DNA of 64,000 bases from Balamuthia mandrillaris (GCA_031835245.2 JAVKOQ020000028.1:248001-312000), one strand, 5' to 3'; shown: positions 6,064 through 8,388, counted from the stretch's first letter. Numbers and translations: made by a program. The notes: a model not told the origin generated them from the letters alone.

Positions 6064-8388
6064 ATGGAAGGAAAAGAGCTGCCTACCGCCGGGGAGTTCC
6101 TCTTTGCGCTCAACCCAAAGTACAAGGACGGCACCCGCCTCCGCAAGCTCCCTGCCGACAACAGCCCCTTCAACGGCGTTTGGCTGCCCAACGACACCCA
6201 GGTGGAGGTCCTCGAGGGCACCCCCGAGTTTGCGCTCGTCAAGAAGCCCGACGGCCAGCAAGGGTGGATACGCCTGCGCAACCTGACGCGCACGCGGCGC
6301 GTGGCCGGCGTCACCAAGGACGTGGTCACCACCGAGATGGTCACCCCTGACCCCGAGTACGTCAAGGGCATCAAGATCTACAACCTGGGCATCAAGGAGG
6401 ACCCCGTCCCCGGCCAGAAGTTTGGCAAGGGCCTGCAGCACCTCATCTCCTCCCAGTGGATGACCGCCATGTCCGAGTTCGTGGGCTCTCACTTTCGCCA
6501 GCTGCAGGGCATGGCCCAGCACGCCTACGAGGGCAGCAAGAGGCATCCTCAGCCGCAGGGCGCCGGCTACGACTTTATCTACTTTGTCAACCTGGCAAAC
6601 CACCTCTTCAACCGGGCGGACGTGTTGGGCCTGGCCTCGCAGGAGGCCATTGACTTTTTTCTCATGGCCTGTTGGTTGGTGATGGCCGCCGCGGAGGTGG
6701 ACGACTTCCCCTTCAGCAAGTACACAAAGGCCCAGAGGCAGGCCCAACGAGAGGACTTTTACAGGATGTACTTGGAGCCGCTGCCAGGACCTGGCGTGGT
6801 CACTGACGTGCCCAGAGATGATGCCTCGGTGTTGGGCAAGTTCGCGGCGCCGGTCACGAGGAGAGATCTCCTCCCTCCCATCGCCCTGGAACGCCTCGGC
6901 ATCAACAATGAGCTGTCGGCGTTGAAGTACGCCGACCCAGAGATACCTCTTCGAGAGGGCTTTCGCATCTCCCAACGCATCGACTCGTTAAAGAGACATT
7001 TCGAGGGAGTCCATCGTCGTTTGACGGATGAGGATCACATCATTCACCTCTTGTGGAACTTCCACGCTATTTACCACGTGCTTGTCGTCTTTCCCGACAA
7101 GAACGACCTGATAGACTACTCGGCCGTGATTGAACGAGGCAGAGTCAAGGTGCCACCGGCCAGATACCTTCCCACCACCTCTCTGGACAAGATCGCTCGT
7201 GGAGGACTTCCTCCCACGCAAGTGCTGAAGCTGGACTGGAACGAAGGAGCCATACCTCCTCCTCGCAGCGTGACGGAGGCGTTGATGAACTTTGTGCAAG
7301 CCGCCGAGGGCACCTTCCTCAAGTGGTACCCTCACCTGGCTGGAGGAGAGGAGCTCCGTCGTCAGCTAGCCAGGTACTGTGGGGGCATCATCGAGGAGAG
7401 CCTCCTCATCACCAACGGCTCGGATGATGCCCTCATTCTGCTGTGTCATTCCCTGTTGGGTCCTGGCAACGTTGTCCTGGCTCCGGTTCCTACCTACGAC
7501 CACTTTTGCGTGAACGCGGTCGGCGCAGGCGCCACTCTTGTTCGCTGGGAAGCGGCAGAGCACAACCGAGATAAGGACCCCTTCGTGGCGGATGCGGATG
7601 CTCTCAGCGAGGCTATAGAGCAGCACAACCCCTGTTTGGTCTACTTGGTCTCTCCCAACAACCCGACGGGAGTGATGTGGTCGCCCAAGACAGTTCGTGG
7701 CTTGGCGGAACGCTATCCCCGGACGACCTTTCTAGTGGATGAAGCTTATTACGAGTTCAGCAGTCCTGACCCTGATGCTCCACAACAACTAGAAGCAAAC
7801 AACGAGAAGGCCAAACAGAAAGAAGAGGCAGGGGAAGACAAGAAGTCCAAGCAGGAAGAAAAGCCTTTGTCCTGCCCTCCTTTCATGATGACCTGCGCCA
7901 AACTGGCCACAACAATGACCAACGTCATCGTCACCAGGACCTTCTCCAAGGCCTTCTGCCTGGCCTCCGTGCGTTGCGGCTACATGGTCGGCCATCCGAC
8001 CACCATCGACGGGCTACGAGCCTACTACAACCCCAAGAGCGTCAACTCCTTTGCCCAGGTGGCCGCCTCCCAGGCCCTGAAGGAGTGGGAGAGCTATTAC
8101 CTGCCTTACATCAAGGCCACCAATGCTGCCAGGGAAGCCTTCCTCCACGACCTTCAGAAGAGGGGCGTGCCCGCACGTTCAGGCGGCGGTGGCAACTTTG
8201 TTTGCGTTGGTCCTGTGCCCGGCGGCAGAACGGCGGAGCTGTGCCAGAGGCTGGAGAAGGAGTCCATCTACGTGCGGGACATCAGCAACAGGTTCCCTGG
8301 CTTCGTGAGAATCACCATCGGCCTGGATATGAGCCGAGTTGTGGACACTCTGGCCGAGTGCTACGCCACTTTTGTGAAGGAGATCTAA
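6064..8388 (+). CDS. Intronless fusion: SH3-like + tandem DUF5664 (dATP/dGTP diphosphohydrolase N-terminal)-like domains + HisC-family PLP aminotransferase (class I/II)
   Basis: 774-aa ORF. Aminotransferase motifs LKLDWNE, ITNGSDDAL, SPNNPTG, VDEAY and RTFSKAFCLASVRCGY (PLP lysine). Central RRDLLPPIALERLG..LKY..EGFRISQRIDSLKRH..DEDHIIHLLWN resembles DUF5664. N-terminal LRKLP..LPNDTQVEVLE..ALVKKPDGQQGWIR resembles a bacterial SH3 domain. Confidence 0.88.
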   Translation: MEGKELPTAGEFLFALNPKYKDGTRLRKLPADNSPFNGVWLPNDTQVEVLEGTPEFALVKKPDGQQGWIRLRNLTRTRRVAGVTKDVVTTEMVTPDPEYVKGIKIYNLGIKEDPVPGQKFGKGLQHLISSQWMTAMSEFVGSHFRQLQGMAQHAYEGSKRHPQPQGAGYDFIYFVNLANHLFNRADVLGLASQEAIDFFLMACWLVMAAAEVDDFPFSKYTKAQRQAQREDFYRMYLEPLPGPGVVTDVPRDDASVLGKFAAPVTRRDLLPPIALERLGINNELSALKYADPEIPLREGFRISQRIDSLKRHFEGVHRRLTDEDHIIHLLWNFHAIYHVLVVFPDKNDLIDYSAVIERGRVKVPPARYLPTTSLDKIARGGLPPTQVLKLDWNEGAIPPPRSVTEALMNFVQAAEGTFLKWYPHLAGGEELRRQLARYCGGIIEESLLITNGSDDALILLCHSLLGPGNVVLAPVPTYDHFCVNAVGAGATLVRWEAAEHNRDKDPFVADADALSEAIEQHNPCLVYLVSPNNPTGVMWSPKTVRGLAERYPRTTFLVDEAYYEFSSPDPDAPQQLEANNEKAKQKEEAGEDKKSKQEEKPLSCPPFMMTCAKLATTMTNVIVTRTFSKAFCLASVRCGYMVGHPTTIDGLRAYYNPKSVNSFAQVAASQALKEWESYYLPYIKATNAAREAFLHDLQKRGVPARSGGGGNFVCVGPVPGGRTAELCQRLEKESIYVRDISNRFPGFVRITIGLDMSRVVDTLAECYATFVKEI

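What the first reader, a model, noticed from the sequence alone, without database searches (positions are those of the whole stretch)
6064..8388. Intronless SH3 - 2x DUF5664-like nucleotide pyrophosphohydrolase - HisC aminotransferase fusion
Seen: an uninterrupted 774-codon ORF in an intron-rich genome, strongly G/C-ending codons at its 5' end, and an intact fold-type-I PLP enzyme from ~7150. It also has a segment (6860-7080, RRDLLPPIALERLG..LKY..G..ISQRIDSLKRH..DEDHIIHLLWN) preceded by a more degenerate look-alike (6420-6680, GKGLQHLIS..LQGMAQHAYEGSKRH..NHLF..MACW). Established: this pattern is typical of DUF5664, the dATP/dGTP diphosphohydrolase N-terminal family, mostly phage and bacterial and linked to nucleotide-pool editing in DNA-modifying phages. 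HisC-like proteins act on phosphorylated substrates (histidinol-P; threonine-P for CobD). Inference: I know no described protein with this architecture. It may couple nucleotide pyrophosphate cleavage to transamination or decarboxylation. Candidate roles are a non-canonical HisE-like + HisC step or a laterally acquired nucleotide/base-modification or antiviral pathway, with SH3 providing targeting.
Basis: partly seen in the sequence, partly recalled or inferred. Interest (0 to 1): 0.85.

Follow-up and report, generated by a model that had tools for sequence, protein, structure and literature searches.

The report
Phage-type nucleotide hydrolase fused to aminotransferase
An expressed, intronless amoeba gene joins a bacterial-type SH3 domain, a doubled phage-type nucleotide-cleaving module and a vitamin-B6 enzyme; the same fusion recurs in unrelated protists and myxobacteria, and it likely makes a small phosphorylated amino-alcohol rather than histidine.

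Summary
The 774-codon ORF is real, transcribed without splicing where RNA covers it, and under purifying selection. A protein differing at 3 residues is annotated in Balamuthia mandrillaris. Architecture: SH3b (aa 8-75), degenerate DUF5664 copy (95-225), intact DUF5664 copy (256-352), fold-type-I PLP enzyme (365-774). The fusion is not unique. Thirteen other near-full-length copies turned up, including Pelomyxa, Apiculatamorpha and a Myxococcota MAG, and the fused forms make one clade. The tandem DUF5664 module also stands alone in many protists and, in one Chlamydiales genome, inside a purine cluster. The PLP domain is not canonical HisC. It belongs to a DWNE/NxK clade (E. coli Tyr243 replaced by Lys in 49 of 49 rows) that excludes his-operon HisC. 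The viral members of that clade sit in glycan clusters resembling the Campylobacter serinol-phosphate pathway. The HisE+HisC reading is disfavoured. Best reading (0.35): a two-step enzyme, a metal-dependent nucleotide pyrophosphohydrolase with an altered base pocket feeding a transaminase or decarboxylase of small phospho-substrates. No substrate is shown. I found no description in the literature searched. Verdict: new variant of known parts; interest 0.6.

The parts
6064..8388 (+). Intronless ORF, 774 aa, three-part fusion
   Evidence: One DNA-like contig (run X4) spans 5793-9727. All 13 differences to run X1 lie at third codon positions, 12 synonymous.
6085..6288 (+). Bacterial-type SH3b domain (aa 8-75), no evident signal peptide in front of it
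   Evidence: The same domain is fused to a Ser/Thr kinase in P0019.
6346..6738 (+). Degenerate DUF5664 copy (aa 95-225). Keeps the conserved N-terminal arm (Y99, G109, D113, K119, G121, G123, S129) and E211/D213; lacks the RH and EDH motifs.
   Evidence: HHalign P=0.003 to canonical DUF5664, above 100 of 100 shuffles; conservation; three-helix pattern in both halves; arm has pLDDT<50 in monomer models.
6829..7119 (+). Intact DUF5664 copy (aa 256-352) with R277, K288, R311-H312, E323-D324-H325, H328, W331; family Trp replaced by Pro295
7156..8385 (+). Fold-type-I PLP enzyme of the DWNE/NxK clade. PLP and phosphate residues are kept (Y368, Y422, N533, D559, Y562, K629, R637, R738, R749); K658 stands at the E. 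coli HisC Tyr243 position.
7774..7884 (+). Charged insertion of about 33 aa in the PLP domain, absent from the 13 other full-length fusions aligned

Best explanation
This expressed gene encodes an SH3b + tandem-DUF5664 + PLP-enzyme fusion that likely works as a two-step cytosolic enzyme: the DUF5664 pair is predicted to cut a nucleotide's alpha-beta diphosphate bond with a bound metal, and the PLP domain would transaminate or decarboxylate a small phosphorylated substrate such as dihydroxyacetone phosphate or phosphoserine, not histidinol phosphate. Shown: the architecture, its recurrence, one origin of the fusion, intact PLP chemistry residues, intact His/Asp/Arg motifs in the second DUF5664 copy, and the Tyr243-to-Lys and Trp-to-Pro changes. 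Inferred: the two copies fold as a single-chain pseudo-dimer with one active site, the first copy giving the arm and scaffold and the second the metal ligands. Also inferred: loss of the family Trp moved the substrate away from purine dNTPs towards a nucleotide-activated small polyol or amino-alcohol, whose released phospho-product is the substrate or product of the PLP domain. The SH3b would anchor the enzyme to a partner; which partner is unknown.
For: Recurrence: 14 of 19 hits are near-full three-part fusions, including the query (48-68% identity). Named ones are Balamuthia, Pelomyxa schiedti, Apiculatamorpha spiralis and a Kofleriaceae/Myxococcales MAG. Fused modules form one clade, 99/98 (21 fused rows + 1 short row), and so do their PLP domains, 97/86. 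The second copy is the best-conserved part (69-84% identity). A phage DUF5664 converts dATP, dGTP and dUTP to dNMP in Mn2+ buffer (PMC12884076, passages). The top viral fold match (E 3e-3, 241 columns) is, by length and Pfam, a mycobacteriophage protein that is itself a degenerate + intact tandem. The solo module lies 14 bp after purB among purL, purM, purA and guaB in a Chlamydiales genome. Trp is present in 8 of 8 canonical rows, 34 of 35 solo rows and 1 of 22 fusion-clade rows. Lys replaces Tyr243 in 49 of 49 clade rows, while 6 of 6 his-operon HisC keep Tyr; the clade has support 100/97. In 26 of 34 viral loci the enzyme lies within 5 kb of UDP-glucose dehydrogenase, a PaaK-like ligase and a capsule HAD phosphatase, and 0 of 34 carry his genes. 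This mirrors the Campylobacter set Cj1441/Cj1437/Cj1438/Cj1435 that makes and uses serinol phosphate (PMC11800397, passages).
Against: No substrate or activity is shown. The informative viral neighbours are only 28-32% identical, are closely related to each other, and are sister to a larger group whose nearer bacterial members have no context I could fetch. No DUF5664 gene lies in those 34 viral loci. Kofleriaceae/Myxococcales proteins of about 400 aa nest inside the fusion clade with only a relic of the DUF5664 tail, so the PLP domain may work without the module, which weakens tight coupling; whether the module is a separate upstream gene there is unknown. The first copy's homology is statistically weak, and the halves do not match each other. 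The full-length model has pTM 0.53, so no fixed domain arrangement is predicted. HisC models and structures remain the best named hits. The role of Tyr243 in imidazole binding, and of the Trp in base stacking, is recalled or inferred; Tyr21 (Y368 here), the residue a review ties to histidinol-phosphate specificity (PMC3896937), is kept.
Confidence: 0.35

Rival explanations
1. The tandem DUF5664 still hydrolyses purine (d)NTPs, for pool sanitising or dNTP depletion against viruses or intracellular bacteria; the PLP domain is a loosely linked second activity or a metabolic sensor.
For: Known DUF5664 activity; purine-cluster context of the solo form; metal-site motifs invariant. Solo forms are fused to PAS, EF-hand and M23 domains, so the module accepts varied partners. 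It also occurs on a gene-dense contig that looks like a giant virus (L008; my impression).
Against: Family Trp lost in 21 of 22 fusion-clade rows. No PADLOC family match for the fusion or the module. The fusion is kept across distant lineages at 55-68% identity, which suggests selection on the pairing.
Confidence: 0.25
2. The module acts after the PLP step as a phosphatase, replacing the HAD phosphatase that accompanies this PLP clade in viral glycan clusters.
For: A HAD phosphatase lies within 5 kb in 27 of 34 viral loci. HisC-HAD fusions exist in his operons (L077-L080). The base-pocket Trp is lost.
Against: DUF5664 is reported to release pyrophosphate, not to cleave monoesters. The basic arm (K119, K122) and several Arg residues are retained, which fits a polyphosphate substrate (inference).
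Confidence: 0.13
3. The module is a non-catalytic nucleotide or metal sensor that regulates the PLP enzyme.
For: PLP-only derivatives nest in the clade; motif change at Trp295.
Against: All putative catalytic His/Asp/Arg residues are conserved, and this copy is better conserved than the PLP domain (75% vs 59% mean identity).
Confidence: 0.12
4. Histidine biosynthesis: a non-canonical HisE (PR-ATP pyrophosphohydrolase) fused to HisC.
For: Best NCBIfam hit is hisC (191 bits). Top Foldseek and phmmer hits are histidinol-phosphate aminotransferases. Tyr20, Tyr55, Arg322 and Arg335 equivalents are kept. Weak fold likeness to all-alpha dimeric dUTPases, whose superfamily includes HisE (recalled).
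Against: Below the hisC cut-off (191 vs 277). Outside his-operon HisC in the tree, with Tyr243 replaced by Lys. No PF01503 hit in 23 rows. No EExxE motif, and HHalign to HisE covers only 8 columns (prob <=1.1%). The Chlamydiales genome with the solo module has no hisG, hisB, hisD or hisE hit while 14 of 14 controls do (genome may be incomplete). The related Acanthamoeba already has PR-ATP pyrophosphatase in a heptafunctional protein (PMC6029752, passages). The host's own his genes could not be checked.
Confidence: 0.08

Closest known systems
DUF5664 / dGTP_diPhyd_N (PF18909), e.g. Arthrobacter phage Wayne DUF5664 and the Acinetobacter phage SH-Ab 15497 DUF550-DUF5664 fusion (PMC12884076)
   Same: The second copy aligns over 97 columns (99.5%) and keeps RxDL, KY, RH, EDH and HxxWN.
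   Different: Tandem with a degenerate first copy; family Trp lost; mainly eukaryotic; fused to SH3b and a PLP enzyme. That paper's main text has no occurrence of 'eukaryot' or 'protist'.
Mycobacterium phage MalagasyRose gene 54 product (tandem DUF5664)
   Same: Degenerate + intact tandem design; top viral fold match.
   Different: First halves are not detectably related (P=0.085), so probably a separate duplication; it keeps the Trp; no PLP domain.
Histidinol-phosphate aminotransferase HisC (TIGR01141)
   Same: Fold and PLP/phosphate-binding residues.
   Different: Below cut-off; separate clade; Tyr243 replaced by Lys; DWNE motif; no his context in viral relatives.
Campylobacter jejuni Cj1437 (DHAP to serinol-P) and Cj1436 (phosphoserine to ethanolamine-P) (PMC11800397)
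   Same: Their pathway partners (UDP-glucose dehydrogenase, amide ligase, phosphatase) match the gene set around the viral members of this clade.
   Different: The viral ligase is PaaK-like. No such partners lie beside the gene in the window.
All-alpha dimeric dUTPases (MazG-like superfamily)
   Same: Ranks 3, 4 and 27 of 48,161 chains, spanning both halves (Z 5.8, rmsd 4.1, 123 aligned; Z 5.6, rmsd 5.2, 126 aligned).
   Different: Z is under the noise level for helical proteins; no acidic EExxE metal motif.

Membership tests
DUF5664 (PF18909) | Profile match over the domain | tested here: met
   Below the gathering score in this protein (19.5-22.3 vs 27 bits), above it in a homologue (32.2); HHalign 99.5%; 23 of 23 rows hit
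DUF5664 (PF18909) | RH and D/E-D-H..H motifs | tested here: met
   Second copy only
DUF5664 (PF18909) | Trp of the NW.KG motif | tested here: not met
   Pro295; Trp in 1 of 22 fusion-clade rows vs 34 of 35 solo rows and 8 of 8 canonical rows
DUF5664 (PF18909) | First half is a second copy | tested here: inconclusive
   P=0.003 vs canonical, fold match across both halves E 3e-3, no direct half-to-half match; likely
DUF5664 (PF18909) | dNTP to dNMP + PPi activity | not testable with these tools
   Needs an assay
HisC (TIGR01141) | Score over the curated cut-off | tested here: not met
   191.4 vs 276.55; the insertion-free relative P0091 scores 219
HisC (TIGR01141) | PLP lysine and PLP/phosphate residues | tested here: met
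HisC (TIGR01141) | Tyr at E. coli position 243 and grouping with his-operon enzymes | tested here: not met
   (only 6 his-operon references)
HisC (TIGR01141) | Histidinol-phosphate transamination | not testable with these tools
   Needs an assay
HisE (PF01503) | Profile match and EExxE motif | tested here: not met
   motif absent from aa 95-352
CobD (TIGR01140) | Score over the curated cut-off | tested here: not met
   129.9 vs 290.55
Cj1437/Cj1436-type enzymes | Sequence clade membership | not testable with these tools
   Sequences not held; only the pathway analogy was tested
All-alpha NTP pyrophosphatase superfamily | Fold match | tested here: inconclusive
   Z 4.6-5.8
SH3b | Profile and beta-barrel model | tested here: met
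   (below the Pfam gathering score)

The most novel reading that the evidence does not exclude
Protists carry an undescribed family of single-chain pseudo-dimeric nucleotide pyrophosphohydrolases derived from a phage DNA-modification enzyme. One branch re-cut its base pocket, fused once to a serinol-phosphate-type PLP enzyme, and now runs a channelled two-step route from a nucleotide-activated precursor to an unknown amino-alcohol phosphate. That fusion then passed between protists and myxobacteria, possibly from eukaryote to bacterium.
Probability: 0.25. Interest if true: 0.82.

Novelty: new variant of a known kind. Interest (0 to 1): 0.6.

Why it matters
The characterised DUF5664 enzymes I found in print are phage nucleotide-pool enzymes; here a tandem version is scattered across amoebozoans, alveolates, stramenopiles, rhizarians, Picozoa and kinetoplastids. 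A conserved fusion ties it to a PLP clade that databases label HisC but that likely is not, so the finding both flags a mis-annotation and offers a Rosetta-stone clue to two orphan activities. It is directly testable with one soluble protein from a harmless organism. It is also a case of gene exchange between protists and myxobacteria.

Tried and rejected
No host genome is held, so host his genes were not checked. GTDB pattern scans found 0 of 17 candidates with the single sequence and 1 of 28 with the alignment; they missed the Myxococcota fusion, so no bacterial neighbourhood for the fusion was obtained. Viral contigs: 0 of 79 candidates encode the tandem module. Annotated phages gave only weak half matches. 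No solved structure of the module by sequence or Foldseek; no PDB sequence match for the SH3. Direct half-to-half HHalign was not significant. The homodimer prediction of the module with Mn and ATP gave no answer. Plasmid and phage searches with PLP-clade members returned hits at about 24-34% identity, mostly annotated hisC or unannotated. PADLOC: no match for 7 of 8 proteins; only the kinase P0019 hit. AU tests did not reject eukaryote monophyly (p 0.141 and 0.149), so transfer direction is open. No RNA holder was on record; three raw RNA runs gave only scattered reads on the ORF. Earlier-findings look-ups returned nothing. Contamination was rejected: eukaryotic neighbours (F-box, BEACH, RhoGAP), a second assembly with 3 residue differences, and a spanning contig.

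Full report
Observation. The ORF at 6064-8388 reads 774 codons without a stop. Its 90% cluster holds one other protein, annotated 'DUF5664 domain-containing protein [Balamuthia mandrillaris]', differing at 3 residues. Neighbours are eukaryotic: F-box, BEACH-WD40, RhoGAP, PH. Run X1 behaves as spliced RNA: 11 of the 15 joints listed have CT..AC ends in minus-strand neighbours (11 more were not shown), and none listed lies in the ORF. X1 contigs cover 6023-6176, 6720-7946 (across the DUF5664/PLP junction) and 7975-8370 without skips; 6239-6580 is not covered. Three raw RNA runs gave only scattered reads on the ORF, so expression there is low. One contig of run X4 spans 5793-9727. All 13 differences between X1 and the window inside the ORF are at third positions, 12 synonymous. 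GC3 is 0.82-0.94 in the first 250 codons.

Domains. Residues 8-75 are a bacterial-type SH3b (Pfam E 0.0085; Atlas 0.95). Residues 256-352 are DUF5664: the Pfam score is below cut-off here, but 23 of 23 homologous rows hit, and HHalign to 8 single-domain proteins gives 99.5%. Residues 95-225 align end to end to the same 8 proteins at P=0.003, above 100 of 100 shuffles, yet not to the second half. Both halves have three long helices (module pTM 0.84). In the viral fold library 18 of the top 50 rows are named DUF5664 proteins, none at E<=0.001. The best spans 241 columns and, matched by length and Pfam to gene 54 of its phage, is itself a degenerate + intact tandem. Solved structures give only weak matches, dimeric dUTPases at Z 5.8 and 5.6, and nothing by Foldseek. 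I read the region as a likely single-chain pseudo-dimer: the first copy keeps the arm and E211/D213, and the second keeps RH, EDH and H328. The conserved arm is unresolved in the models (pLDDT<50).

Distribution. Of 19 proteins found with aa 1-360, 14 are near-full three-part fusions including the query. Named ones are Pelomyxa schiedti, Apiculatamorpha spiralis and a Kofleriaceae/Myxococcales MAG; a Pelomyxa sp. PLP fragment also matched. The module stands alone in Pseudopedinella, Alexandrium, Picozoa, Lapot, Luapelamoeba, Pseudocohnilembus and a Chlamydiales MAG. The family is small: 59 of 1.84 billion representatives at E<=1e-30. It was found in 1 GTDB genome (1 of 28 candidates) and 20 of 154 metagenome candidates. 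In a tree of 57 rows (those covering 75% of the module, cluster duplicates dropped) the 21 fused rows plus one short row form a clade at 99/98. Myxococcota rows sit among eukaryotic rows in both domain trees, nearest the window's protein, but eukaryote monophyly is not rejected (AU 0.141, 0.149). Exchange across domains is likely; its direction is open. Kofleriaceae/Myxococcales proteins of about 400 aa nest in the fusion clade with a relic of the DUF5664 tail. Three others beginning inside the module are probably mis-started gene calls.

The module's function. The phage Wayne DUF5664 hydrolyses dATP, dGTP and dUTP to dNMP, assayed with MnCl2 (PMC12884076; abstract, first seventh of the text and passages). 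The solo module in the Chlamydiales genome starts 14 bp after purB, with purL, purM, purA and guaB within 10 kb. That genome has no hit for hisG, hisB, hisD or hisE, while 14 of 14 controls ring (it may be incomplete). This is a single context. The family Trp is present in 8 of 8 canonical rows and 34 of 35 solo rows but 1 of 22 fusion-clade rows (Pro in 18). I infer a changed substrate pocket. HisE is not supported.

The PLP domain. All PLP and phosphate residues of E. coli HisC are kept, and HisC is the best named hit, below cut-off. I built a tree of 57 chosen rows: 14 fusions, 26 of the 120 hits listed, 9 of 34 viral loci, 6 his-operon HisC and 2 others. The 49 rows with Lys at Tyr243 form a clade at 100/97 that excludes all 6 his-operon enzymes, which keep Tyr. 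That Tyr243 contacts the imidazole ring is recalled; the review I saw names only Tyr21 and Asn99 (PMC3896937, passages), and Tyr21 is kept here. The only neighbourhoods I could get for this clade are viral: 26 of 34 loci carry UDP-glucose dehydrogenase, a PaaK-like ligase and a capsule HAD phosphatase within 5 kb, 0 of 34 carry his genes and 0 carry DUF5664. These loci are related to one another and only 28-32% identical to the window's domain. The gene set parallels Campylobacter Cj1441, Cj1437 (DHAP to serinol-P), Cj1436, Cj1438 and Cj1435 (PMC11800397 and PMC13276843, passages). Whether Cj1437 belongs to this clade was not testable.

Mechanism. Best reading (0.35): a cytosolic two-step enzyme in which the pseudo-dimer cleaves a nucleotide-activated small molecule and the PLP domain aminates or decarboxylates the phospho-product, or makes its precursor. 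Rivals: dNTP sanitising or depletion with a loosely tied PLP domain (0.25); module as phosphatase (0.13); module as sensor (0.12); histidine pathway (0.08). I put about 0.85 on 'not histidine biosynthesis'. Acanthamoeba already has PR-ATP pyrophosphatase in a heptafunctional protein (PMC6029752, passages); the host's own genes could not be searched.

Novelty. 'DUF5664' occurs in 2 papers of the library, both on phages (the second seen as a listing only). 'diphosphohydrolase' with 'histidinol-phosphate aminotransferase' gave 0, and the clade motif gave 0. Two Balamuthia papers (PMC8569187, PMC10471605; passages and one held supplement each) do not mention it; unheld supplements and subscription papers could. 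PMC9283133 (passages) was read for serinol-phosphate background only. The parts are known; the tandem eukaryotic family, the fusion and the likely substrate shift appear undescribed. Verdict: new variant of a known kind, interest 0.6.

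Noticed in passing
window 8590-9721 (+): Two overlapping frames that together look like a Fic-domain gene (motif recalled), broken by a frameshift near 9290-9310. 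No Pfam hit for the pieces and no X1 coverage over 8462-9487. Pseudogene or assembly error.
   Followed up: partly
L043-L072 (viral contigs), around 4300-8200: A conserved phage cassette: capsule-type HAD phosphatase, 444-aa PaaK/CapK-like ligase, DWNE-clade PLP enzyme and UDP-glucose dehydrogenase within glycosyltransferase islands; all three partners in 26 of 34 loci. Looks like a viral uronic-acid amidation pathway.
   Followed up: partly
L077-L080: HisC-HAD (561, 551, 546 aa) and HisC-HAD-IGPD (741 aa) fusions in his operons of 4 of 300 genomes of the Chlamydiales bacterium's phylum (Pfam on two of them).
   Followed up: partly
P0019: The fusion's SH3b and the start of its linker (58% identity) sit at the N-terminus of a bacterial-type Ser/Thr kinase.
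   Followed up: no
P0017, P0018, P0219: The tandem module is fused instead to PAS, peptidase M23 or EF-hand domains.
   Followed up: no
L008 5576-6358: Solo module on a gene-dense 38-kb contig with collagen-like repeats, SF2 helicase, U-box and FkbM methyltransferase; looks like a giant virus (not tested).
   Followed up: partly
L002 9755-11905: Full fusion on a 185-kb, 31% GC, apparently intron-poor eukaryote-like contig; parabasalid-like by my impression only.
   Followed up: partly
window 35050-37823 (-): MULE transposase and SWIM domains, a Mutator-like element.
   Followed up: no
window 27418-29193 (-): RNase III domain ORF, 591 aa.
   Followed up: no
window 9889-24721 (-): Large spliced BEACH-WD40 gene region; F-box gene upstream at 4829-5668 (-).
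   Followed up: no
L042 445-529: The record annotates a tRNA-Pyl (CUA) in mycobacteriophage MalagasyRose.
   Followed up: no
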